64,000 nucleotides of DNA from the IMG/VR virus record IMGVR_UViG_3300025584_000449, positions 115,903-179,902 of that record. One strand, 5' to 3'. Below the pieces are notes generated by a model. It saw nothing but the letters and a program-made list of their open reading frames with translations, was not told the DNA's origin and made no database searches. This document shows positions 520 to 26,562 of this stretch, in pieces. How positions within the stretch are numbered: position 1 is the stretch's first letter; each line of letters opens with the position of its first letter. Source of the stretch: a virus. Made by a program: the position numbers and the translations under genes.

Positions 520-806
520 TTATTTAAAAGTGTCGTCTTTTCCCCACCTGTCTTTACGCAACAGTAAAGTTATTATTGCGTAATTAGCGAGGTCTGCTAA
601 TGAGTCGTCTATGCTTTCATCGCTTACTTCAGCTTCTTGATTATCCCACATTAGTTGTTTTAGTCTATTTATTTATCAGACATTCTAACAAAACAGCCCT
701 TCTCTCCAAGTATCTCAATATTGGCTGAGCCGTAGTCGTGGTTTTTCTTCTTCGCTAAGCTGTATAGCTTTTTCTGCATATCCTCAAAATGACTTAGTGA
801 ATCCAA
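520..806 (-). pseudogene. DUF1599/Nmad1-like (nucleotide modification-associated) gene broken by a 1-nt deletion; not in the ORF track
   Basis: First frame reads (M)DSLSHFEDMQKKLYSLAKKKNHDYGSANIEILGEKGCFVRMSDK* with TAA at 671-669. The -1 frame continues INRLKQLMWDNQEAEVSDESIDDSLADLANYAIITLLLRKDRWGKDDTFK*. KNxDYG, VRxxDKxxRL and DESIxDxLxDLANYAI are typical of this family. Confidence 0.75.
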
Positions 807-1297
807 CAGTCTCCGATCACAGGTTCTACTTCCATAGGCACTGACGGAGCATAATGATTAAACGCTTTTATCATTTCTAATGATAACATGCCCGCGACTT
901 CATCAACTTCATCCTTATGTACTTCTAATAAAATTTCGTCGTGAACTGCGTTGATTATCATAGCATCATATTTGTTATCTCTAATTGATTCACTCGTTTT
1001 CCATAAAGCTCGTTTAGTAACACTAGAACCAGTACCCTGGAATGGTAAGTTTTTAGCAATGTTCATAGCATGGCTATGATGTTTTGGATTATCAAAATCC
1101 ATTGAACTTAAATCTCTTCGTCTACCATCAAGCGGGCTAAATGCGTATCTTAAATCTTCTGCACTGTCGGTAAAATCTTTAATTAGTTTAGCGATTTTAG
1201 GGAAGGTTAAGAAGTAAGATCTTAATAAGCCAGATGCTTCAGGTATTGAAATTTTTAGAACAGCTGATAATCTCTTAGCACCCATTCCGTAAATAAC
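794..1297 (-). CDS. polA: Family A DNA polymerase, exon 2 (C-terminal polymerase domain)
   Basis: Begins VIYGMGAKRLS, which completes motif B. Contains AKNLPFQGT and motif C (AVHDEILLE). Confidence 0.93.
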   Translation of the reverse strand, partial: VIYGMGAKRLSAVLKISIPEASGLLRSYFLTFPKIAKLIKDFTDSAEDLRYAFSPLDGRRRDLSSMDFDNPKHHSHAMNIAKNLPFQGTGSSVTKRALWKTSESIRDNKYDAMIINAVHDEILLEVHKDEVDEVAGMLSLEMIKAFNHYAPSVPMEVEPVIGDCWIH

Positions 1298-1839
1298 CAG
1301 GAACCCTCTGGTTTACCAGAGGCCCGGACTATCCCTTTATGTAACGACCTGTTACTTGGTCTCGTGTGCAATGGTGTTTTTGATGACATTTCTTACATAG
1401 AACTTCTAAATTTTCTATATTATTATTTTGTCGATTATGATCTTTATGATGAGTCAGGATATTTTTTTCTGACTCACATCGATTACAAGTTTTACCATAA
1501 TATTCAAAAGCCCGTAAACTAAAATTTCTTATTCCGTTTTTATACATGTGGTTATCTTTTCCTGATTGATTACCACCAGAACCACTATATGGTTTTTTAA
1601 TTAAACCTTTTTTAATTCTCCACGCGTGAGAGTTAAATGCGTTTCTACATTTATCTGAACAGAATTTTTGTCTACGTTTTGGAAGTACATTGTCACACTT
1701 TTTACATACTCGTCGTCTAGTCTCTACACTTTCCTGCTTCTTCAGGCTTAGCTCGGGATTGCCACCACCATTATGTGCTGAGGTTTCCCCGAATTTGGCG
1801 AGTTTGTTTTCGGCATTATTTATTTTATTCATTATTCAT
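1298..1839 (-). mobile_element. Group I self-splicing intron (542 nt) in polA
   Basis: 5' splice site follows the U of TTCGGT and the intron ends in G. The IGS TAAATAATGCCGAA (1822-1809) pairs over 14 bp with the spliced junction. P4 TTCGGG/CCCGAG, P6a CCTG/CAGG, P7 GAGACTA/TAGTCC, P8 TATGTAA/TTACATA and P9 CCTCTGG/CCAGAGG are all present. Splicing restores KAINFGVIYGMG. Confidence 0.95.
1329..1832 (-). CDS. Intron-encoded HNH homing endonuclease with Cys-rich zinc-binding motifs
   Basis: CKKC...FCSDKC, CNRC...THHKDHNRQNNNIENLEVLCKKCHQKHH. Lies inside the intron. Confidence 0.9.
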   Translation of the reverse strand: MNKINNAENKLAKFGETSAHNGGGNPELSLKKQESVETRRRVCKKCDNVLPKRRQKFCSDKCRNAFNSHAWRIKKGLIKKPYSGSGGNQSGKDNHMYKNGIRNFSLRAFEYYGKTCNRCESEKNILTHHKDHNRQNNNIENLEVLCKKCHQKHHCTRDQVTGRYIKG

Positions 1840-3093
1840 ACCGAAATTGATGGCTTTAGCGGCATCACGCTCTTCTTTAGTAATACTATCATAGTTTCTA
1901 TTGAACAGGATAGCGGCACAGTAGGCATGCAAATCTTTTCCAGTTCTCAAACATTCAATAAACTTATCTTCTTCACTCATATGAGCTAGTAGTCTAAGTT
2001 CCTGATTTGCGAAGTCCGCTGCGACTATTCTATAGTCTAGATCTTGTGCTGTAAAAGCAGCACGATATACAGCACCTGCTGGTATATTCTGCATATTAGG
2101 TTTGGTACTGGCATATCTACCAGAGTCTGTGTTACCTAATTGCCAGAAACTAGAATGAACTCTACCTGTTACAGAGTTTACATTATTATCTAGAAATTCC
2201 TGTCCGTATGTAGTAACTAATTTCTTTCGTTTTCTGTACTCTAGTAATAGTTTAATTACTGCATGATTTTGTTTTTCAAGTTCTTGTTTATTAGTAGAGG
2301 TTAATGTTACATTACATATCTTAGGCAATAATTCCAACATTTGTTTAGGAGAATCATAATTTACCGTAGGTGACCCAAAAAGATCTACTGAGCAGTGTGG
2401 AGCGAACGCTTCATCCAGCTCAACCTTTAAATCAATAGCGGCCTTTAATGCTATATCTTTTAAGGCAAGCCATCTTTTTCTATCTAAGTGTATACCATTC
2501 AATTCTAACTCAGCCGTAGCCCGCACAGTAGAATTTTCTAAATGGGCTAGTTTACTCATATCTCTTTGTCTGATAAACTTGTCCAATTTAGTATGCAGCG
2601 GTAATAAGTATTTAACGTCATCACCAGCATACTTAATTTGTTCCTCTGAAAATTGATCACCAAACTTCATACCTACGAAGCTTTTCTGTAAATCCTTAGA
2701 GACAGTCTCTCCAAGATATTTATCTACTACTGCGTCAAAACTATGTTTTGGTATGTTTTTACCCTGTGTCAACAAGTAATCTGCTAATAATGTGTCTTTC
2801 ATATTTAAAAGATCAATGTCAAAATTAGCCCTGGTCATAACATAGTCAAACTTAGAGTTGTGTGCTACTTTAGCAGTATCAGGCTTTGCTAGTAATTCTA
2901 GAACAGGAAATATACTAGTACCAAGTCTCGCAACATCTAGTACATACTGAGTATGCTCGGTGCCTATTTGTATTAGAAGTACTTCATTCGTATGAGGATC
3001 TAGTCCATTAGTTTCTACATCATACCCGATTATACCTCTAGTTTTTATAAACCTCTCTACTATTGGCACATCTTCTGGTTTTGAAATAAACAT
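1840..3093 (-). CDS. polA: Family A DNA polymerase, exon 1 (3'-5' exonuclease and N-terminal polymerase domain); spliced product 585 aa, no 5'-3' exonuclease
   Basis: ExoI YDVETNG, ExoII HNSKFD, ExoIII YAGDD, GRYASTKPNMQNIP, motif A ADFANQELRLLAH, motif B RDAAKAINFG. Confidence 0.95.
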
Positions 3094-3933: not shown

Positions 3934-3963
3934 AAAAAAGAGGAGCCATTTCTGACTCCTCTT
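3934..3963 (-). terminator. Rho-independent terminator downstream of the holin-like gene
   Basis: Minus strand GAGGAGTCA-GAAA-TGGCTCCTC-T6. Confidence 0.8.
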
Positions 3964-3986
3964 CATGGGCCTATAGGTTGTTTATT

Positions 3987-4262
3987 TTACTTTCTCTTCT
4001 TAGTAACTTCAGGCTTTCCGCCATTAGTAGCAGCTTTATGAGCACTATATAGCATAGTACCACCGCCACCTAGTAAGAACGCATCAGTAAGCAGCGCTTG
4101 CATTTGTACGCCTTGTTCTGATCCCCAGATACCGGCAACTAATGCGCCAAGTGCAAATGGGATTAAAGGCCACAATCTCTTAGGAACAGCGCTTTTTACA
4201 TAGTTAGTAACAATAGGAATACCAACCACGGCAATCGCATAAATTGAGTCAAAGTCTAACAT
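3987..4262 (-). CDS. Holin-like small membrane protein
   Basis: 91 aa with two to three hydrophobic segments and a basic C-terminus (VTKKRK). Has its own predicted promoter and terminator. Confidence 0.55.
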   Translation of the reverse strand: MLDFDSIYAIAVVGIPIVTNYVKSAVPKRLWPLIPFALGALVAGIWGSEQGVQMQALLTDAFLLGGGGTMLYSAHKAATNGGKPEVTKKRK

Positions 4263-4361: not shown

Positions 4362-4958
4362 TTAAAAATTAAAAGAAAATACGGGTGGACTAGTGTCAAA
4401 TCTATGCCAATTAAGGATATACTGAGATCCTATCACAGCCACAATTTTATTTCCTTGTTGGATGATATCATTATCTAGCTCAAACTGTAGCTGACAACTT
4501 CCATCTTCCGCATCCTCTGGACCTAATGTATCTAACATTTTTTCCAAAGTATTCTTTTCAGATGTAGTAAAGGCAGCTATTGTTCTACCTTCTGATCTTA
4601 AATCGATCCAATGGGTTCGACTATAAACATGACAATATTCAAATAAGAGCCGCCTGAACTTTGGGTTGTCCACGGCACTTACAATACAATCATATCCGTA
4701 TAAATCTCTTTCATCTGTAATTCTTTTTTCTAAAGCTTTAAACCCATATCTAGCATGTAATACTGCTGCTTTAGGGTCCATTATATCTTCGTCTTCAAAA
4801 TTTTGATAAGAAATATTTTTTGCTTCTACGTGGTCATCGTCTGCTATAGTTATTTCTACGTTACTGTCAGGTAATTGTTCCCAACAAATTAAGTCGTATA
4901 AATTAGCAGCAAGCCAACTTCCTATTCCACCAGCACCTACAATTAATATTTTTTTCAA
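4362..4958 (-). CDS. ThiF/MoeB/E1-like adenylyltransferase (minimal, 198 aa)
   Basis: GAGGIGS nucleotide-binding loop, DDDHVEAKNISYQ, PKA, SAVDN, candidate catalytic Cys in DGSCQ. TTG start overlaps the JAB stop codon. Confidence 0.88.
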   Translation of the reverse strand: MKKILIVGAGGIGSWLAANLYDLICWEQLPDSNVEITIADDDHVEAKNISYQNFEDEDIMDPKAAVLHARYGFKALEKRITDERDLYGYDCIVSAVDNPKFRRLLFEYCHVYSRTHWIDLRSEGRTIAAFTTSEKNTLEKMLDTLGPEDAEDGSCQLQFELDNDIIQQGNKIVAVIGSQYILNWHRFDTSPPVFSFNF

Positions 4959-5410
4959 GTTACTAGTTCTCTTTCATCTATGTCATGACATATAGCTGGT
5001 ACCCACATAAGATGTTCCCGATCACCATTATAATAGTAAACACCAAAGGTCTTATATTTAGGAGAATATATAATGTATATTCCCTTATAACCGGCCTCTC
5101 GAACGTCTGTTATTGAGGGATATGGTTTGTTATTAGGATGTGTATGGTACACCCCTATAAAATCATACTTAGCATCATCGTTATAATGAGTGGTCTCTTT
5201 TATAACATTTAACCATTCTTCTGGGTGAGGCTGGTAATCTTCTTTACCATTGAGTCCTGCTATTACATTGGTAAGTGGTATAAACTTTTCTATGTGCCAT
5301 TCGTTTTTGATTTTAGTGCCGATAAAAGCCCCGCACACCTCGTGCACGGGGCTTGAATCGCCATATATTTTTAACTCCTGAACTATCTCAGGAGTAATGA
5401 AAACTTCCAT
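4955..5410 (-). CDS. JAB/MPN+ (JAMM) metallo-isopeptidase
   Basis: N-terminal EVCG glutamate and an exact HxH-x7-S-x2-D motif (HTHPNNKPYPSITD). Confidence 0.92.
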   Translation of the reverse strand: MEVFITPEIVQELKIYGDSSPVHEVCGAFIGTKIKNEWHIEKFIPLTNVIAGLNGKEDYQPHPEEWLNVIKETTHYNDDAKYDFIGVYHTHPNNKPYPSITDVREAGYKGIYIIYSPKYKTFGVYYYNGDREHLMWVPAICHDIDERELVT

Positions 5411-5634
5411 TAGCCACCAATTAGTGTGTTAGCTAAAGTGATGTCTTCAGCATTTAAAAGATCTTCAATGCCCACAGTGTCAGGATTAACCTGACGGCCA
5501 TCTACATAAGCCCACTTACTGTTGTTTGTGCATTGCTCTTGCAACTCTGCAAGGGCCTCTGCACCAGTGCCTTGAAACTCTGTGTGACCTTCAGCGGATA
5601 CGATCTTTAATGTGATTTCTTTTTCTTTTGCCAT
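5410..5634 (-). CDS. Ubiquitin-like (beta-grasp) protein with C-terminal diglycine
   Basis: 74 aa ending TLIGG*. Predicted strand-strand-helix-strand pattern (ITLKIVS, HTEF, AEALAELQEQC, WAYVDG, ITL). Adjacent to JAB and E1 genes. Confidence 0.8.
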   Translation of the reverse strand: MAKEKEITLKIVSAEGHTEFQGTGAEALAELQEQCTNNSKWAYVDGRQVNPDTVGIEDLLNAEDITLANTLIGG

Positions 5635-5649: not shown

Positions 5650-8028
5650 TTAAAGTGTAGTTATTTCTTTTGCTACTAAGTCATCGTTGTGTAGTGCATA
5701 TAATCTATTTACTAGCCTATCCATACCAACTTGAGCAGCATTTCCTTTATCAACAATACAAATATACTTTCCAGAATTGTAGTCAAAGACCTTGCAATCA
5801 TTGTGATTATTAGAGTCAGGCTCTAATGATCCTTTTTCAACAAAGTAAGTTCTTATTTTGCCTTTTATTTTATACCCTTTGACTCTTCCTCTAGTGGTGT
5901 CTTTTGTTTCCTCTGTTAATTTAAATAACTTAATGGTGTCAGTTAGTAGTTCCTGACTCTTCTTTAAAGCTTCAACATAAGCTTTTCGTCCAGCAGTTAT
6001 AATATCTTTAACATCGTCTACGGTTACACCCTCTACTATTTTTTCATTAAGTAGTAGATCTACCACATCTAAAATACTTCTTTTATTTGATATTGTCAAG
6101 AATCTATTTGTATTACGAATTCTGTATGAGTTCCCATCTAGAACCATAGAGGTTGTACGACCTTTTCTAGTAATCGGGAATTTTATAGAGAATTGATTGT
6201 AATTATTATGTCCTGGAGATGACCCCATTACATCACTTACTCCACTAATATTAATACCACGGTGCAGTAATTTATGTAATTTTAACGAACATTTTCTAAC
6301 CGAGTCTAGGAAATAATCGAAGTCCTCCTGGGTCTCAAAGCACAAAGCTCGCTCGAGACATTCATCAACTTCATTCTTATTAATACGATTTTCATTAATG
6401 TAGTATCTTGTAGAGGTCACACCTCTTGTAGAGGTGGATGATTTTATCTCAAGATTAAAATTAACGTTACCTATTGTACCAGCGGTGCTCTTACTACCCA
6501 GACTTAAATAACTTAAAAATGTTGCGTAAACAAGATCCCAGTCAATGGAATTAGGATCTGTGTTTCTTAACATCTTATCAAATACATCATTAAGCCATCT
6601 GTCGTGCCCTGTATAGGTATTCTTATCAATAGAAAGTGTTTGTCCTGCGTAACTAATAGAGTCCTCAGTTATATCAATACCGTTTAATTTAGTTTTCTTT
6701 ATTGTTTCTAAATTATTAATAACTTTGGTTATCTTCTTAGTCATTATGTTTTTACTTTGAACTACTTTTTGAGTGCGTTCTTCTTTTTTCATGTGCAGTC
6801 TCAAGATAGTATTCAAAGTACCATTATCTAAAACAACAACTCTATCTTCACTAGCCTTTGTCTTTAGATAATTTTCGATTATTACTTTATTAAGCATAAC
6901 CGGGGCAGGGTCTGTTAATACAGCTTCACCCAGCGTTAGTAATGGGTCATCATTACCTCTATTTGCCACAGTACCATCAGGACCAAGCTTGTAATATACT
7001 AAGTGTCCAGCATCAGCGTAGTCATACCAAGAACTAGTTGCTTCTACTTTAAACCAACTAAAGTAATCTCCTGCACAAAATTCTGCTGCGTTATGAATTC
7101 GTGGAGTGTTGTAATAAGGAAATGTACTTGAGCTACCGACTACACAATATCTAGTGTTATGATGTTCATATACTGAATGTATGTATCTAAACTTGTTATT
7201 TTCTTTTAATAACTCTAGTTGCTCAGGAGTAGGCTCTTTAGTAGTAATCTTATCAAAGTTTGTTGTATAAGATTCTTTTAAAAATAAATCTATCTCATTT
7301 ATCTTTAATCCAGAAGCGTTAGAATTATATCCACGCCTGCTGCTTAAGAGCCAATTACCAAAACTATTTATTGGCAGAGTTGAGTCTTTGCCAAAATAAA
7401 AGTTTTTTGTATAAGATAGAGCAACCTGTGCATTACTAAAATGACAGGTACCCAATAACTGAAATTTATTATTGTTCTCTCCGTACCCTCTGTTTCTATC
7501 TAGAAATGAGTTATAACTGGAGAATCGTTCTTGAATTTTACTTATCTTTTCAAGATCAGCTAGATCTGTATCCTTTAATGAATCAATAATAAAGGTGTCT
7601 TTATCAGTAATAATAGGACAGTTACTTCCATAGTTATTAGTCTTTGTCAATGAATAAAAGAATTTTATCTTTCCTTTAGGTATCATCTTATTTATACTTT
7701 TAACTTGCTCTTCTGGCAAAGTTTCAAAAAGTTCACCTATGTCTTGATTAATTTCTTTTGCCCAATCGTAATTAGCTATAGCAGTTGTTACGTCACCCTG
7801 TGAAGTAAAGTTATAGTCATTATCCAGTAAAAACTGATGGTAAGCTAACATTTTTCCTGTATTAAATAAAAACCCTATATGACTTCTTAAACTACTATCC
7901 CCAGACTGTAATACTGGGCTTGACTTAAACTTAAACGAGGTCTTTTTAAGTAAGTCATAGTCTGCTTCTTCAAATCCTAGATCATATAATGCGTTTATTA
8001 CTTTTAATCTACCGGACGGTATTCTCAT
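5650..8028 (-). CDS. Large hypothetical protein (792 aa) heading the Ubl-JAB-E1 cassette
   Basis: Long ORF ending 15 nt before the Ubl start. No family recognised. Confidence 0.6.
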   Translation of the reverse strand: MRIPSGRLKVINALYDLGFEEADYDLLKKTSFKFKSSPVLQSGDSSLRSHIGFLFNTGKMLAYHQFLLDNDYNFTSQGDVTTAIANYDWAKEINQDIGELFETLPEEQVKSINKMIPKGKIKFFYSLTKTNNYGSNCPIITDKDTFIIDSLKDTDLADLEKISKIQERFSSYNSFLDRNRGYGENNNKFQLLGTCHFSNAQVALSYTKNFYFGKDSTLPINSFGNWLLSSRRGYNSNASGLKINEIDLFLKESYTTNFDKITTKEPTPEQLELLKENNKFRYIHSVYEHHNTRYCVVGSSSTFPYYNTPRIHNAAEFCAGDYFSWFKVEATSSWYDYADAGHLVYYKLGPDGTVANRGNDDPLLTLGEAVLTDPAPVMLNKVIIENYLKTKASEDRVVVLDNGTLNTILRLHMKKEERTQKVVQSKNIMTKKITKVINNLETIKKTKLNGIDITEDSISYAGQTLSIDKNTYTGHDRWLNDVFDKMLRNTDPNSIDWDLVYATFLSYLSLGSKSTAGTIGNVNFNLEIKSSTSTRGVTSTRYYINENRINKNEVDECLERALCFETQEDFDYFLDSVRKCSLKLHKLLHRGINISGVSDVMGSSPGHNNYNQFSIKFPITRKGRTTSMVLDGNSYRIRNTNRFLTISNKRSILDVVDLLLNEKIVEGVTVDDVKDIITAGRKAYVEALKKSQELLTDTIKLFKLTEETKDTTRGRVKGYKIKGKIRTYFVEKGSLEPDSNNHNDCKVFDYNSGKYICIVDKGNAAQVGMDRLVNRLYALHNDDLVAKEITTL

Positions 8029-8047: not shown

Positions 8048-8413
8048 TTAGTTTTTAAGGATACTTAGTACTAAGAATCCATTATCGTCATTATCTGCGT
8101 TTACCTCTTTACCTATTAATTCCTGTAATGAGTTAACTTCGTAGAATTTAATTAATTTCGCTAACCCAGTATAACTGGATAGTTCTCCATCGTCATTTAT
8201 ATTGATCCAAAGTCCTGCTTTTTTAGATTCTCCACGATCCTCTAGAAGAAGGTCACTAATCTTGAACTCTCTTCCTTCTGCATCGCGGACTGTAAAAATG
8301 GCTTTACTGCTAGGACCACTCGGTAAATTAACTTCTTCTTGGTCAATATTTATGACTGTTACTGTCTTATTGGAGCGTCCTACTCCAATGTTTAAAAAAT
8401 CTTTATCGTTCAT
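8048..8413 (-). CDS. Hypothetical protein
   Basis: 121-aa ORF in operon orientation, overlapping the upstream stop. Confidence 0.55.
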   Translation of the reverse strand: MNDKDFLNIGVGRSNKTVTVINIDQEEVNLPSGPSSKAIFTVRDAEGREFKISDLLLEDRGESKKAGLWININDDGELSSYTGLAKLIKFYEVNSLQELIGKEVNADNDDNGFLVLSILKN

Positions 8414-8829
8414 TTATTATTATCGGTTTGATTATTAAAGAAAGGGCCTGCTAATTGCACAGCGTTTTGTCTAGTTGAATTAATGCACGCCATCATAGTG
8501 TCTGCGATAGCTTTAATTAGCTCTGCACCCTGATACTTCTTATGCAAAGTAATAGCTATATTTCTGGTAGTTTCTTCAAGCTCTGCCTGTAGTGCTTGGT
8601 TGCAAACACAGTTCTGAGGAGATCTGCGAGCTTCAAACAGGTCCTGCTTGGTTAACTTTGAAGTAAACTCTGAGTGGCCACATTTGAAACAGGAAGGGTT
8701 CTGATCCCTAACACATGTTTCAATATAATGAATGTGGTCACACTTTTTGCACTTGATGTAACGAATTTTTAGTTCATGCATTGTACGAATTAAGTCCTTT
8801 ATAAATGTAAAAATAAGGGAGAGAAGCAA
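8410..8829 (-). CDS. Hypothetical zinc-ribbon protein; true start may be MHELK
   Basis: CKKC...CFKC...CVC cysteine pattern. Confidence 0.55.
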   Translation of the reverse strand: MLLSLIFTFIKDLIRTMHELKIRYIKCKKCDHIHYIETCVRDQNPSCFKCGHSEFTSKLTKQDLFEARRSPQNCVCNQALQAELEETTRNIAITLHKKYQGAELIKAIADTMMACINSTRQNAVQLAGPFFNNQTDNNK

Positions 8830-8843
8830 TTTGCTTCTCCCCC
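8810..8843 (-). terminator. Rho-independent terminator downstream of the RNR gene
   Basis: Minus strand GGGGGAGAAGC-AAATT-GCTTCTCTCCC-TTATTTTT. Confidence 0.75.
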
Positions 8844-8898
8844 GTTCAATATAAAACTAAGCGATGTCGCCTAGTTATTCTTCTTATACCAAAATAAC

Positions 8899-23826: not shown

Positions 23827-26562
23827 CTAAATAACTCCTTGGTTAAAAACAATCACATCTATTTTCCTTTTATTAAATATAAGTGATTGTAGTTTCTGAT
23901 CTTTAATATATCCTTTAGTATACATATCAAGCATCATTGCTTTTAAGCTATGGCCTAAAGACATATTCTGTTGCATAAGAGCGCTATTTATTAGTGCGTA
24001 TGCCCTAGAACCTATAATATAAGTATGTTCTGAATTATTTAAATCATTCCATCCTATAATTCTTCCCTTTTCATATTGAGTTAAAGACACTGGAACTGTC
24101 GTATCATCTAAAAGGATTACTGATTCTGTACCAATTAAAAGACTCAACTGCTCAATGAATTTCTCGGACGACATCTCCTCTGCCGATTCTACTGCTTGTT
24201 CTTTTATTTTAGAAAGTAAATACTCTTTAAACTTTTCTTGGTTCTCAGCAGATACTTTTTTCGACCAAAAGAATTCACTAATAAATTTGTAACTTGTCAT
24301 TAACAAACTAATGTTTCTAGTAATACGAGTATCATTCGGTAAGCCTTTTACCTCTTCATAGAATAATGTTTCATATGATTGGAAGGCTCTATCAAATAAT
24401 AATGGATTAGTTTTTAATACATGATGTATATAACGACCAGTTATTCCAGAGAATAGATGACTTACACTTTCTACTTTTCTACCAAGGTCTCTATCTTTCT
24501 TTCCTGGTAGGCAGTTTACTTGAATGCTTCTTGCTAATGTGGAGGCTTCTCCATCTGGAGTATCCTCACCAGTACATGCCAACCAGCCCTTAATAGTAAA
24601 TGTTTTCTGCATTGCCATGTCAGGACGTGCTCTTGATCTGCTTGTATTATCTGCATAAGTCTGCATTAAAGTTAAAGCTTGATCATAGGCTCGACCTAGA
24701 TTACGACGTTTAAAATCATCTATTACATACAGAGCATCTTTAAACAGGTGTCCTATTCTTGATAGCGCTGCAAAGGTAGAGGTCCAACTAGCTAAGTTAG
24801 TGAAGTTTCCATAAAAGTTCTGGAAGAACTTCATTATATAAGACTTACCATCACCAGAGTTACCTCTAACGAAGTAAGTAAATTTAGTGTCTTCTCCAGA
24901 TAAGAACGGAGCTATAATTGGCAGCATAGTGTGGGCTAGTGCTGAATGTGTATAATTCCAATCACTTAAAGAAAGAAGATTATTTAATCCTTGTTTAGCT
25001 TCATTAAATTCTTCGTTGGTTACTTCTATTATATTTAGATATTTTGCTACATCAGCATCTTCTAAATCAAACTCAATCGAGGTATTTTCATGTATGCCTG
25101 TTTTATCAATGATCACTGACGGACTTATATACTTATCAGGATATCTATCTTCCTCTTCATCCTTCCTGTAGCCCATCTGTAATACTACTCGCTTATCTAC
25201 AGTATTACTGTATTTCGCAATACATTGTCTAATTTTAGGTTCGGCATTTATCTTTGTAAAAATACCGTCAATTCCTAATTTGTCTGTTATATGTGATTTG
25301 AATGCGTTGTTATCATGAAAGTCTGATGGAGGCATTTTAAATTCAGCAGCTGCTACACCGTCTGCATCTGTTTTTATAATACCTTTTAGATATGTATATT
25401 CGTCACCCGTTCCATCATCAACAACTACGCGCTCTTGTAAATCAACAATATAATTACACAATCTTTCAAGTGTAGGTGCAGCCCCATCTTCACCTAGATT
25501 TTGTTCATAGTAACTATTCCCACGTCTAATTAAATTATCAAATGGATCTTCTACATTTAATAAAGCCCCTTCACTAAATCCTAGAGCTTTTTTATAGAAA
25601 TATATTGGACTACGTTTTGTACCAATCTCAGCACAAGGTCCAGGACACATACCAGTTTCTTGTAACTTAGCACAAGTTATTGGTTTATACCCGGCCCCTC
25701 CAACGGCACCCTTCATTCGTTGTATATTTTTTTCAGACGTTTCTTTTTTGTAATTACCTAGCTTAGGCAAAATACTATTAAGTAAATACTTCTCACCATC
25801 TTGAGTATCATATTCTGAACTAGCATTAATTAATATGTATGCTAAGTTTAGTCTTTCTTCATTAGTTAATACTCCAGTAGTAAATGCTTTTGTACGTAAG
25901 TTTCTTAATGCTGAACATTTTTCAAAGATAACATCAATGGTATTATGTGCAGCTATTAAACTTTTTATATCCGCATACTCAATAGTTTTTAGATCAACTG
26001 TATCAATAAATTCACTAGCTTTTCCAGAATGCTGGTGCTTTCCTTCTGGCCCTTTTACGAGAGAGCCCATACTTCCTTCACTGACAGACTTTTGTTTAGG
26101 AAATATTTCCCAGTGTAGTCCGTCATTAACTAGTTCTATGTTTTTCATAATACTATGTAATCCAACATACACTGGTGAAGAAGCTACAGGTTCATCAAAG
26201 AAGATCCAAACATGGTATCCTTTAAACCCAGAAAACTCTAGATAGGACGGGATCTCATGCTCTGTTAAAGCTGTTTGGATAAGTTCTGCTTGTTTTCGTA
26301 AATCAGGTAACCAAAGATCAAGATCAAAATTCTCTTGAATAAATATATCTTTATTGATATCTATATCAACAACAGCCCACTTTAATGTGTTCTGTTCTGG
26401 GATAATTTGATATAACCCTATAGTTCCCATACCTTTAAGGTGTCCTGATATAACACGGTCTGTTAAATCTTCATGGACAGGTACATAAGTTCTATTAGGC
26501 GTTTGAATAGCATACACATCTGGCCTATGAACAAAAAGTTTTCTAAAAACGTCTATATTCAT
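23827..26562 (-). CDS. Primase-helicase: AEP primase, Cys-rich PriL-like region and P-loop helicase
   Basis: VVDID, EFSGFKGYHVW (AEP motifs); PITC...CPGPC; GNSGDGKS Walker A and VIDDF Walker B. Confidence 0.85.
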   Translation of the reverse strand: MNIDVFRKLFVHRPDVYAIQTPNRTYVPVHEDLTDRVISGHLKGMGTIGLYQIIPEQNTLKWAVVDIDINKDIFIQENFDLDLWLPDLRKQAELIQTALTEHEIPSYLEFSGFKGYHVWIFFDEPVASSPVYVGLHSIMKNIELVNDGLHWEIFPKQKSVSEGSMGSLVKGPEGKHQHSGKASEFIDTVDLKTIEYADIKSLIAAHNTIDVIFEKCSALRNLRTKAFTTGVLTNEERLNLAYILINASSEYDTQDGEKYLLNSILPKLGNYKKETSEKNIQRMKGAVGGAGYKPITCAKLQETGMCPGPCAEIGTKRSPIYFYKKALGFSEGALLNVEDPFDNLIRRGNSYYEQNLGEDGAAPTLERLCNYIVDLQERVVVDDGTGDEYTYLKGIIKTDADGVAAAEFKMPPSDFHDNNAFKSHITDKLGIDGIFTKINAEPKIRQCIAKYSNTVDKRVVLQMGYRKDEEEDRYPDKYISPSVIIDKTGIHENTSIEFDLEDADVAKYLNIIEVTNEEFNEAKQGLNNLLSLSDWNYTHSALAHTMLPIIAPFLSGEDTKFTYFVRGNSGDGKSYIMKFFQNFYGNFTNLASWTSTFAALSRIGHLFKDALYVIDDFKRRNLGRAYDQALTLMQTYADNTSRSRARPDMAMQKTFTIKGWLACTGEDTPDGEASTLARSIQVNCLPGKKDRDLGRKVESVSHLFSGITGRYIHHVLKTNPLLFDRAFQSYETLFYEEVKGLPNDTRITRNISLLMTSYKFISEFFWSKKVSAENQEKFKEYLLSKIKEQAVESAEEMSSEKFIEQLSLLIGTESVILLDDTTVPVSLTQYEKGRIIGWNDLNNSEHTYIIGSRAYALINSALMQQNMSLGHSLKAMMLDMYTKGYIKDQKLQSLIFNKRKIDVIVFNQGVI

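What the first reader, a model, noticed from the sequence alone, without database searches (positions are those of the whole stretch)
4362..5634. Phage-encoded ubiquitin-like conjugation cassette: Ubl(-GG), JAMM protease and E1
Seen: three translationally coupled genes. The 74-aa protein ends LIGG* and its TAA overlaps the next ATG. The JAB protein has a perfect E...HxH-x7-S-x2-D motif and its TGA overlaps the next TTG start. The minimal ThiF/E1 has GAGGIGS, AVDN and a free Cys (GSCQ). No thiamine, molybdopterin or tRNA-thiolation genes lie nearby, and the E1 has no rhodanese domain or zinc CxxC pairs. Established: E1-JAB-Ubl sets without sulfur-transfer partners act as protein-conjugation systems (archaeal SAMPs, bacterial Bil and CBASS Cap2/Cap3 anti-phage systems). 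Inference: a lytic phage carrying its own writer, tag and eraser in its replication arm may tag host or phage proteins, or reverse and decoy host ubiquitin-like defences that modify virion proteins. This is the strongest candidate for an undescribed system in the window. Caveat: the usual NLxRQ arginine is replaced by Tyr (NISYQ).
Basis: partly seen in the sequence, partly recalled or inferred. Interest (0 to 1): 0.92.

Follow-up and report, generated by a model that had tools for sequence, protein, structure and literature searches.

The report
Virus-encoded ubiquitin-like tagging module
An uncultured marine phage carries a compact gene set for a ubiquitin-like tag, its activating enzyme, a trimming protease and a large partner with a possible E2-like end; the set recurs in about 190 viral contigs and looks undescribed, but tagging is not shown.

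Summary
On the minus strand lie a 74-aa protein ending LIGG (5634-5410), a JAMM/MPN+ peptidase (5410-4955) and a 198-aa minimal ThiF/E1 (4958-4362). Their stop and start codons overlap (TAATG, TTGA).

The small protein folds as a beta-grasp (pLDDT 84.6), and its best structural matches are SUMO, NEDD8 and ubiquitin.

All four genes co-occur in 34 of 36 group-1 loci, and in group-2 viruses wherever enough flank is held. Cellular relatives in Poseidoniales archaea carry E1-JAB fusions.

Many Ubl homologues carry 1-4 residues, or a whole ~160-aa domain, after the invariant GG. This implies processing by the JAB peptidase.

The phage record holds no sulfur-transfer genes.

My best reading is a virus-encoded Ubl conjugation system with unknown targets (about 0.55). 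A sulfur-carrier role is not excluded. The papers I could search do not describe it. Other readers in this scan noted the same stretch.

The parts
5650..8028 (-). 792-aa protein ('BIG'): variable N-terminal half and conserved C-terminal core (residues 515-792). It is the fourth conserved component of the module.
   Evidence: No Pfam, NCBIfam, PHROG or PADLOC family. It lies directly upstream of the Ubl in 36 of 36 group-1 loci. hhalign of A3 against the group-2 ~420-aa family A4 gives probability 97.1%, E 5.7e-11, over residues 515-792. A profile of the C-terminal domain finds 641 clusters (50% identity) at E<=1e-3, always at the C-terminus of proteins of ~650-800 aa or ~370-460 aa.
5653..6021 (-). 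Predicted UBC/UEV/RWD-like (E2-like) C-terminal domain of BIG, residues ~670-792. The invariant Cys757 codon is at 5758-5760.
5410..5634 (-). Ubiquitin-like protein, 74 aa, ending in GG (codons 5413-5418) directly before the stop.
4955..5410 (-). JAMM/MPN+ metallopeptidase (JAB), 151 aa. The HxH-x7-S-x2-D motif lies at 5105-5146.
   Evidence: Pfam Prok-JAB 1.4e-13. PDB entry 2kcq, Mov34/MPN, 2.6e-7. The motif is present in 33 of 33 group-1, 44 of 44 group-2 and 21 of 21 group-3 homologues.
4362..4958 (-). Minimal E1-like adenylating enzyme, 198 aa. GxGGIGS lies at 4917-4937 and the Cys155 codon at 4494-4496.
   Evidence: Pfam ThiF 57 bits. The broad profile A6 hits the active adenylation domains of Uba1 (3e-12), UBA3 (7e-12), UBA5 and SAE2 (2e-11). 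It scores Uba4 at 7e-10, ThiF at 4e-9 and MoeB at 1e-8. D40, K63, D97 and R102 are conserved in all 93 distinct sequences; R121 and the SCQ cysteine are conserved wherever the position is aligned.
3937..3964 (-). Terminator-like hairpin that closes the transcription unit. It follows a 91-aa holin-like membrane protein at 3987-4262.
   Evidence: The PHROG holin match is 1.1e-6.
8817..8876 (-). Two terminator-like hairpins after the ribonucleotide reductase-like gene. They mark the upstream boundary of the unit.

Best explanation
This is a virus-encoded ubiquitin-like protein-conjugation module of four genes transcribed together: BIG, Ubl, JAB and E1.

Proposed mechanism:
1. The Ubl is made either mature (GG-stop, as in this phage) or as a precursor with extra residues after GG. 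The JAMM peptidase trims the precursor.
2. The minimal E1 adenylates the C-terminal Gly with ATP. It probably takes the Ubl onto its invariant Cys155.
3. The Ubl passes to the invariant Cys757 in the UBC-like C-terminal domain of BIG. BIG's fast-evolving N-terminal half would choose the target.
4. The JAMM peptidase can also reverse the mark.

What is shown here: the domain identities, the predicted folds, the conserved residues, the co-occurrence, the gene fusions and the absence of sulfur-transfer genes. Every chemical step, and the identity of the targets, is inferred.

The module always lies near the virus's own transcription initiation factor: a sigma-70 in group 1 and a protein with a TFIIB-type zinc ribbon in group 2. 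Host or viral transcription proteins are therefore one candidate target class, but that is a guess.
For: Ubl fold. It is predicted as a beta-grasp, and GG is invariant in 46 homologues.

Precursor forms. Many homologues carry 1-4 residues after GG (GGN, GGK, GGNV, GGNAN and others). In L032 and L035 a ~160-aa domain follows GG. One complete 215-kb genome (G086) has no detectable JAB gene, and its Ubl ends exactly in GG.

JAB. The JAMM motif is intact in 98 of 98 homologues.

E1. The ATP and Mg residues are kept. The SCQ cysteine is conserved in all 91 of 93 distinct E1s where the position is aligned. It lies 58 residues after the Mg-binding Asp. In E. coli MoeB (D130 to C187) and ThiF (D127 to C184) the spacing is 57; those numbers are from my own knowledge. 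The broad E1 profile scores ubiquitin-type E1s about 10 bits above ThiF and MoeB.

BIG. Its core is conserved between two very different viral lineages. Its C-terminal domain repeatedly matches the E2/UEV/RWD fold, with an invariant Cys in the loop after the fourth strand.

Co-occurrence. 34 of 36 group-1 loci carry all four genes. Group-2 losses are explained by cut flanks, or by a Ubl lying further away. In contigs binned to Micrarchaeota and Methanoperedens the order is BIG, E1, then a protein ending in GG.

Fusions. E1-JAB and Ubl-E1 fusions occur in Poseidoniales.

No sulfur-transfer partners. The phage record has no rhodanese, cysteine desulfurase or PP-loop thiolase gene.

Transcription unit. 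Stop and start codons overlap, and terminator-like hairpins bracket the genes.

Against: The E1 lacks the canonical Arg of NLxRQ (it has Tyr) and the N-terminal Arg-finger region. It has no UFD-like domain to recruit an E2. Its C-terminal half, including Cys155, cannot be aligned to any solved E1 by sequence.

Beta-grasp, GG, a JAB peptidase and GG+X precursors all occur in sulfur-carrier pathways too. TtuB and MoaD are among the fold matches.

The record is 89% complete, and host enzymes could supply sulfur.

There are no expression or biochemical data.
Confidence: 0.55

Rival explanations
1. Sulfur-carrier pathway. The E1 adenylates the Ubl, and host persulfide donors convert it to a thiocarboxylate. 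The conserved core of BIG, with its invariant cysteines, is the sulfur-accepting or sulfur-inserting enzyme. It would make a thiolated nucleotide, cofactor or metabolite for the virus. JAB only matures the carrier, as QbsD does for QbsE and Mec+ for CysO.
For: The E1 is a minimal ThiF/MoeB-type enzyme. Its best NCBIfam rows are PRTRC_ThiF and ThiF. TtuB and MoaD are among the fold matches of the Ubl. GG+X precursors with a JAB peptidase are known in sulfur-carrier systems (my own knowledge). BIG has no sequence link to E2 enzymes and carries further conserved Cys and His residues: C563, C580 and H585.
Against: The phage record has no rhodanese, cysteine desulfurase or PP-loop thiolase. No member of the module has a domain of any known sulfur-acceptor family (ThiG, MoaE, CysM, TtuA). 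The C-terminal domain of BIG matches the UBC/UEV/RWD fold, not a known sulfurtransferase. All ThiF, MoeB and UbaA equivalog models score far below their cut-offs.
Confidence: 0.2
2. Single-substrate or self-directed ligation. The Ubl is attached to only one partner, either BIG itself or the neighbouring transcription factor. Alternatively the E1 activates the Ubl C-terminus for a non-protein acceptor, as in MccB-like chemistry. In this reading the UBC-like domain of BIG is a non-catalytic Ubl-binding module of UEV/RWD type.
For: The best fold matches include the non-catalytic UEV and RWD domains (Vps23, Tsg101, GCN2) as often as true E2s. MccB is among the E1 sequence matches. The module keeps tight, conserved linkage to one large protein and to a sigma or TFIIB-like gene.
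Against: An invariant Cys in the loop where E2s carry their catalytic Cys is not expected in a purely binding UEV/RWD module. The Ubl is a folded 70-90-aa domain, not a short MccA-like peptide.
Confidence: 0.13
3. Counter-defence only. The JAB strips host Bil-type or CBASS-type conjugates, and the Ubl with its E1 acts as a decoy or competitor for host ubiquitin-like immunity. No viral conjugation to targets would take place.
For: The JAB and E1 give weak matches to CBASS Cap3-type JAB models (5.5e-9) and Cap2 E1-E2 models (2.3e-5) in PADLOC. Bacterial Bil systems tag phage tail proteins (bioRxiv 10.1101/2023.09.04.556158).
Against: One complete genome keeps Ubl, E1 and BIG but has no detectable JAB. 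The JAB therefore cannot be the sole effector. A related triad sits in an ordinary chromosomal context in Poseidoniales. Strict conservation of E1 Cys155 and BIG Cys757 implies catalysis by the viral proteins themselves.
Confidence: 0.07

Closest known systems
Bacterial Bil (BilABCD) operons, the E1-E2-JAB-Ubl operons predicted by Iyer et al. 2006 (PMC1779556; bioRxiv 10.1101/2023.09.04.556158; PMC10557695)
   Same: The parts list has the same four roles: a Ubl with a conserved C-terminal Gly, an E1, a JAB peptidase and a candidate E2. Some BilA homologues also carry short overhangs after the Gly. A bacterial E1-E2-Ubl complex (8tyz_B) is among the fold matches of the Ubl.
   Different: This module is encoded by viruses, not by a bacterial defence island. 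The E1 has only ~198 aa and has Tyr in place of the canonical Arg. The E2-like domain is the tail of a 650-800-aa protein (or a ~420-aa one) of no known family, and it is recognisable only by predicted fold. The Ubl has a single beta-grasp domain. The targets are unknown.
Archaeal SAMP / UbaA / HvJAMM1 sampylation (PMC4443979, PMC4895103)
   Same: It has a small beta-grasp protein ending in GG, a ThiF-type E1 and a JAMM protease. The best NCBIfam row for the JAB is the haloarchaeal desampylase (6.8e-17). Relatives of the E1 and JAB lie in archaeal (Poseidoniales) chromosomes.
   Different: SAMP systems work without an E2 and double as sulfur carriers. Here the UbaA model scores 20 bits against a cut-off of 450, and the desampylase model 61.6 against 130. 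A fourth conserved protein is also present.
Type II CBASS Cap2 (E2-E1 fusion) and Cap3 (JAB) (PMC10097602)
   Different: No CD-NTase or effector family turned up among the neighbouring genes I scanned; I ran no dedicated CD-NTase search. A free-standing Ubl is the thing activated, not the C-terminus of an enzyme. Cap3 scores 24 bits against a cut-off of 200.
Bub pathway (BubA/B/CD) (PMC11601596)
   Different: Bub works through oxyesters (Ser) and its E1 lacks a catalytic Cys. Here both candidate catalytic residues are invariant Cys. Bub also adds a serine protease (BubE) that has no counterpart here.
PRTRC cassette (TIGR03736 PRTRC ThiF and partners), including the copy annotated in Acinetobacter phage vB_AbaM_ME3
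   Same: PRTRC_ThiF is the best NCBIfam row for the E1 (9.4e-13). ME3, a cultured jumbo phage, carries a ThiF gene, a 'PRTRC system protein A' and a 72-aa ORF directly after ThiF.
   Different: The E1 scores 48 bits against a cut-off of 144.75, so it is not a member. The ME3 ThiF has ~350 aa, and only residues 3-106 of the window's E1 align to it at 37% identity. No ParB-related partner was seen here. No GenBank phage encodes BIG or its group-2 counterpart.
Lambda/T1 tail assembly proteins TAPI (Ubl) and TAPK (JAB plus NlpC/P60) (PMC1779556)
   Same: This is a phage-encoded beta-grasp protein paired with a JAB peptidase. PHROG 'tail protein' families give weak JAB hits (5.6e-8).
   Different: That system has no E1 and sits in the tail module. 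Here the genes lie among replication and transcription genes (RNR-like, dUTPase-like, PolA, sigma) and include an E1.

Membership tests
ThiF/MoeB/E1 superfamily (Pfam PF00899) | Score above the Pfam gathering cut-off | tested here: met
   57.2 bits against 28.1. The profile hits solved E1 adenylation domains down to 3e-12.
ThiF/MoeB/E1 superfamily (Pfam PF00899) | Nucleotide-binding GxGxxG, ribose-binding Asp, conserved Lys and Mg-binding Asp | tested here: met
   G8xG10G11xG13, D40, K63 and D97 are conserved in all 93 distinct sequences, apart from one gap and one substitution in the glycine motif.
ThiF/MoeB/E1 superfamily (Pfam PF00899) | Arg of the NLxRQ motif (ATP phosphate contact) | tested here: not met
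   Tyr51 in 69 of 70 group-1, group-2 and archaeal-contig sequences; His in 21 of 23 group-3 sequences. In the PDB alignments NLkyQ aligns to NLNRQ.
Sulfur-carrier E1s (ThiF TIGR02356, MoeB NF006444, UbaA NF047750) | Score above the NCBIfam equivalog cut-off | tested here: not met
   35.3 against 275; 16.4 against 449; 20 against 450.
Sulfur-carrier pathways in general | A linked rhodanese, desulfurase or sulfur-acceptor enzyme | tested here: not met
   Rhodanese, Aminotran_5 and ATP_bind_3 are not found in the 179.9-kb record. The one weak ATP_bind_3 hit is a reverse transcriptase. The record is 89% complete, and host genes could not be examined.
PRTRC system (TIGR03736) | Score above the cut-off of 144.75 bits | tested here: not met
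   48 bits.
JAMM/MPN+ peptidases (Pfam PF14464 Prok-JAB) | Score above the cut-off, plus Glu and the HxH-x(n)-S-xx-D zinc site | tested here: met
   51.1 bits against 25. E24 and H89/H91/S99/D102 are present. The HxH...S..D motif is found in 98 of 98 homologues.
Desampylase (NF041370) and CBASS Cap3 (NF050170) | Score above the equivalog cut-off | tested here: not met
   61.6 against 130; 24 against 200.
Ubiquitin-like beta-grasp modifiers and carriers | Beta-grasp fold | tested here: met
Ubiquitin-like beta-grasp modifiers and carriers | C-terminal Gly-Gly, exposed or exposable | tested here: met
   G73 and G74 are invariant in 46 sequences. The gene here ends in GG followed by the stop.
E2 / UBC superfold | UBC-like fold (helix, four-stranded sheet, Cys loop, helices) | tested here: inconclusive
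E2 / UBC superfold | Catalytic Cys in the loop after strand 4; HPN motif upstream | tested here: inconclusive
   The invariant Cys757 sits at that position in the model. There is no HPN motif. Pfam UQ_con gave no match, but its control rang in no genome.
Bil-type E1-E2-JAB-Ubl systems | ATP-dependent formation of Ubl-protein conjugates | not testable with these tools
   This needs biochemistry.
Type II CBASS | A CD-NTase and an effector next to Cap2 and Cap3 | not tested
   The neighbouring ORFs scanned show no such family. I ran no dedicated CD-NTase search.

The most novel reading that the evidence does not exclude
Viruses of both bacteria and archaea (large marine phages with their own sigma factor, and ~95-kb probable Poseidoniales viruses) carry a complete ubiquitination-like machine of their own. 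It would comprise a pro-Ubl, a ~190-aa E1, a deconjugating JAMM protease and a new family of giant E2-like proteins whose variable N-terminal half picks the targets. The viruses would use it to tag host proteins, perhaps the transcription apparatus, during takeover. That would be the viral mirror image of the bacterial Bil and CBASS ubiquitin-like defences.
Probability: 0.35. Interest if true: 0.9.

Novelty: new variant of a known kind. Interest (0 to 1): 0.78.

Why it matters
Ubiquitin-like conjugation in prokaryotes has so far been shown as a host tool (SAMP, Bil, CBASS Cap2, Bub), mostly directed against phages. A viral module with the same logic would mean that prokaryotic viruses also use Ubl tagging. 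Eukaryotic viruses are already known to exploit the ubiquitin system.

The module is conserved in hundreds of marine viral contigs and has cellular relatives in abundant marine archaea.

It offers three practical things. The first is a very small E1 (~190 aa, with Tyr in place of the canonical Arg) that would define the minimal requirements for Ubl activation. The second is a candidate new E2-like family of at least 641 sequence clusters. The third is a four-gene system that can be expressed and tested in the laboratory.

If it turns out to be a sulfur carrier instead, it would point to an unknown thiolated product made by viruses.

Tried and rejected
- Complex prediction with E1, Ubl and BIG 500-792: no verdict. 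The score was 0.76, but the control with the E1 replaced scored 0.72. I do not use it as evidence either way, and the single job is spent.
- The look-up of sequencing runs: only marine DNA metagenomes hold the stretch and no RNA holder is listed. Nothing can be said about expression, so I did not run read laying.
- Foldseek of the BIG model against the PDB: nothing significant. BFVD returned only three unnamed uncultured-virus proteins of 416-452 aa.
- ESM Atlas on BIG 500-792: no usable hit.
- Profile of the BIG C-terminal domain against PDB sequences: no E2 and nothing significant.
- Pfam scan of 40 C-terminal domains: only a recurrent sub-threshold DUF7737 match, in 6 of 40, best 3e-4, 16-21 bits against a cut-off of 27. 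DUF7737 is the C-terminal domain of 1716-aa DUF5724-DUF4132 proteins of unknown function, so it adds no function.
- Pfam UQ_con in the phage's own genome: no match, but the control rang nowhere, so this is uninformative.
- GenBank phages: no record encodes BIG or the group-2 ~420-aa protein. Only distant ThiF genes are present.
- hhalign of the group-2 TFIIB-ribbon protein against the sigma factor: not significant (E 0.023, probability 2%). The group-2 ~390-aa protein upstream of the Ubl shows no relation to BIG.
- Search for longer fused forms of the E1: it found E1-JAB fusions and two unrelated E1 proteins with long tails, but no BIG-E1 fusion.
- Chaperonin search to name the group-2 viruses: it hit only bacterial phages and was not decisive. 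The magrovirus papers do not mention ubiquitin, ThiF or JAB.
- Literature searches for a phage-encoded E1, Ubl and JAB found no description. The library is incomplete, so this is not proof of novelty.
- Promoter scan: no more hits than in shuffled sequence.
Full report
Observation.
The window is the last 64 kb of a 179.9-kb IMG/VR virus record that CheckV rates 89% complete. The stretch is held only by marine metagenomes.

On the minus strand lie three genes:
- A 74-aa ORF (5634-5410) ending LIGG then TAA.
- A 151-aa ORF (5410-4955).
- A 198-aa ORF (4958-4362) with a TTG start.

The 151-aa protein is a JAMM/MPN+ peptidase: Prok-JAB at 1.4e-13, with E24 and HTH-x7-S-x2-D at residues 89-102. The 198-aa protein is a ThiF/E1-type adenylating enzyme at 57 bits. 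It has GAGGIGS, VDN, NISYQ and GSCQ, no CxxC pair and no rhodanese domain. Homologues begin at the same MKKIL, so the TTG start is sound. Terminator-like hairpins at 8876-8817 and 3964-3937 bracket one minus-strand unit. That unit also holds a 792-aa gene (8028-5650), which ends 15 nt before the Ubl gene.

The small protein.

Distribution.
The E1 belongs to a tight family of ~195-204-aa proteins; 138 relatives scored E<=1e-3, many on contigs of 146-204 kb. A profile scan of IMG/VR found 191 viral contigs, and I fetched 80 loci. They fall into two groups.

Group 1 has 36 loci on contigs of up to 215 kb. These are relatives of this phage and keep the order BIG, Ubl, JAB, E1, sigma-70. Of the 36, 34 carry all four module genes.

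Group 2 has 45 loci. Two complete genomes measure 94.6 and 96.8 kb. The layout is a ~390-aa protein, the Ubl, a ~420-aa protein, a ~280-aa protein with a TFIIB-type zinc ribbon (sub-threshold, 1.6e-5), the E1, and then a JAMM peptidase, with a GroEL gene nearby. Missing parts in group 2 are explained by cut flanks or by a Ubl lying slightly further away.

A scan of one genome per prokaryotic species added further cases:
- A misbinned group-1 phage.
- Contigs binned to Micrarchaeota and Methanoperedens with BIG, E1 and then a protein ending in GG.
- About twenty Poseidoniales (marine group II archaea) contigs with Ubl (GG plus 1-2 residues), E1 and JAB. The E1 is often fused to the JAB (393-443 aa), or the Ubl to the E1. 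One of these sits next to an ORF that looks like methylmalonyl-CoA mutase, judged by eye and not scanned, so it is probably a chromosomal context.

The E1-JAB fusion clusters are large, with 222 and 192 member sequences. Given the genome size, the chaperonin, the TFIIB ribbon and these relatives, the group-2 viruses are probably Poseidoniales viruses. I could not prove this.

Evidence for processing.
The GG is invariant, but many homologues continue past it with 1-4 residues (N, K, C, Q, NV, DY, SL, NQ, NAN, AAQE). In L032 and L035 the Ubl is followed after GG by a ~160-aa domain. One complete 215-kb group-1 genome has no detectable JAB, and its Ubl ends exactly in GG. Together with the E1-JAB fusions, this ties the JAMM peptidase to exposure of the GG end. 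It may also deconjugate.

The E1.
Across 93 distinct sequences from all groups the following are essentially invariant: GxGGIGS, D40, D42, K63, D97, R102, D119, R121 and the S-C-Q motif (Cys155). The canonical Arg of NLxRQ is Tyr in the viral groups and His in the Poseidoniales group. The change is therefore a property of the clade, not a lesion.

A broad profile (A6) aligns residues 2-106 to solved E1s. The ubiquitin-type adenylation domains score best: Uba1 3e-12, UBA3 7e-12, UBA5 and SAE2 2e-11. Uba4 (7e-10), MccB, Cap2, ThiF (4e-9) and MoeB (1e-8) follow. The margin is about 10 bits, so it is only a hint.

The C-terminal half, including Cys155, aligns to nothing solved. Cys155 lies 58 residues after the Mg-binding Asp. 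In E. coli MoeB and ThiF the loop Cys lies 57 residues after it; those numbers are from my own knowledge. Every equivalog model (ThiF, MoeB, UbaA, PRTRC) scores far below its cut-off.

The fourth component.
BIG has no family in any library. Its N-terminal half is variable and poorly modelled. Residues ~400-790 are conserved and modelled at pLDDT mostly 76-94. C563, S581, H585, C757, R775, N781, D782 and T791 are invariant, and C580 is nearly so.

The BFVD search returned three uncultured-virus proteins of 416-452 aa. This led me to the group-2 ~420-aa family. Profile-profile comparison confirms homology over BIG 515-792, with probability 97.1% and E 5.7e-11; an independent build gave 94.7%. 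The module therefore has four conserved genes in two very different viral lineages. A profile of the C-terminal domain finds 641 clusters at 50% identity (452 at E<=1e-10). The domain always sits at the C-terminus of proteins of ~650-800 aa or ~370-460 aa.

In the model, residues 670-792 form a long helix, four strands, a loop carrying Cys757, and two helices. In the search that does not depend on Foldseek, about half of the 50 best rows map to residues 681-791 and belong to the UBC superfold. They include the Vps23 and Tsg101 UEV domains, E2S, Ubc9, Ubc8, UBE2E1, Ube2W, UBE2F, Ubc13/Mms2, chain D of the BubCD-BubB-BubA entry 9eav, residues 9-152 of Cap2, and RWD domains. The local sequence also recalls the E2 active-site loop as I remember it: G-x-Y-I-C-I-V-D-K in group 1 and G-P-I-C-I-D-N-M in group 2.

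Sulfur carrier or conjugation?
The phage record has no rhodanese, no cysteine desulfurase and no PP-loop thiolase. The one weak PP-loop hit is a reverse transcriptase. No module protein resembles a known sulfur acceptor. These points, the UBC-like domain, the two invariant cysteines and the viral setting favour conjugation. On the other side, JAB-processed GG+X carriers exist in sulfur pathways, host enzymes could supply sulfur, and nothing chemical has been measured.

I put conjugation at 0.55, a sulfur carrier at 0.20, a single-substrate or non-catalytic variant at 0.13 and a pure counter-defence role at 0.07.

Comparison with known systems.
In logic the module is closest to the bacterial Bil operons (Ubl, E1, E2, JAB) and to archaeal sampylation. 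It shares features with Bub (precursor fusions, a peptidase fused to the E1) and with Cap2/Cap3 (weak HMM matches). It is a member of none of these by their curated models. Cultured phages have only distant analogues: a PRTRC-like ThiF cassette in Acinetobacter phage ME3 and ThiF genes in large Bacillus phages. None encodes BIG.

I found no paper that describes a virus-encoded E1, Ubl and JAB module. Iyer et al. 2006 discuss only the E1-less TAPI/TAPK pair of lambdoid tails. The literature library is incomplete.

Earlier notes of this scan on the same genome had already suggested that the 792-aa protein might be an E2/E3-like partner with a Cys module at its end. I tested that idea here, and it is partly borne out.

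Verdict.
I class it as a new variant of a known kind, with interest 0.78.

Noticed in passing
L032:4756-5463 and L035:4704-5420: In two related phages the Ubl domain ends ...GG and runs on in frame into a ~160-aa domain of no known family. The whole protein has 235-238 aa and ends ALRI. It looks like a natural Ubl-fusion precursor.
   Followed up: partly
G086 (record of L031/L025), Ubl at G086:C1:148938-149153: This complete 215-kb group-1 genome keeps BIG, Ubl and E1 but has no detectable JAB gene. The Ubl abuts the E1 and ends exactly in GG.
   Followed up: partly
L104-L107, L110 (E1-JAB fusions); L088, L102 (Ubl-E1 fusions); L093, L110: Poseidoniales (marine group II archaea) contigs carry a related Ubl-E1-JAB triad with various fusions and no BIG-like gene. 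One copy lies next to an ORF that looks like methylmalonyl-CoA mutase (judged by eye, not scanned), so it is probably a chromosomal context. The direction of transfer between host and virus is open.
   Followed up: partly
L085:4869-9142 and L086:4830-8140: Contigs binned to Micrarchaeota and to Methanoperedens BLZ2 carry a 710-aa BIG homologue that overlaps the start of a 195-aa E1. A protein ending in GG lies just downstream, as the next ORF in L086 and about 1.2 kb away in L085.
   Followed up: no
G000:C1 about 24,100-25,030 (outside the window; L149:1237-2160): A 307-aa reverse transcriptase (RVT_1, 1.9e-25) sits next to a VWA-domain protein in the same phage genome. It may belong to a diversity-generating retroelement.
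   Followed up: no
window 794-3093: The DNA polymerase I gene is split into ORFs 1825-3093 and 794-1285 by an inserted 167-aa HNH-type ORF (1329-1832). Earlier notes of this scan read this as a group I intron.
   Followed up: no
window 8048-8829: A 121-aa ORF is conserved directly upstream of BIG in group-1 loci; the homologue in L002 is at 1810-2220. A 139-aa Cys-rich ORF also lies here, and its annotated start is overlapped by a terminator-like hairpin (8843-8817), so its real start is probably further in. Either ORF could belong to the same transcription unit.
   Followed up: no
window 3987-4262: A 91-aa membrane protein with a holin PHROG match (1.1e-6) lies between the E1 and the sigma factor, inside the terminator-bounded unit. 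It is conserved only in L016 and L017.
   Followed up: no
L082 (KU935715.1, Acinetobacter phage vB_AbaM_ME3, record positions 135746-140101): This cultured jumbo phage carries a PRTRC-like set: 'PRTRC system protein A', a ~350-aa ThiF and a 72-aa ORF directly after it. It may be a separate, unstudied phage E1/Ubl cassette.
   Followed up: no
BIG C-terminal domains of L019, L021, L025, L026, L035 and L054: These give a recurrent sub-threshold match (16-21 bits against a cut-off of 27) to Pfam DUF7737. That domain is the C-terminal domain of giant DUF5724-DUF4132 proteins, for example L151:7330-12480. The match covers the strands and the Cys loop.
   Followed up: partly
P0273 (1116 aa) and P0275 (1035 aa): These metagenomic proteins have an N-terminal E1 domain related to this family, fused to long repeat-rich tails that are unrelated to BIG.
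   Followed up: no
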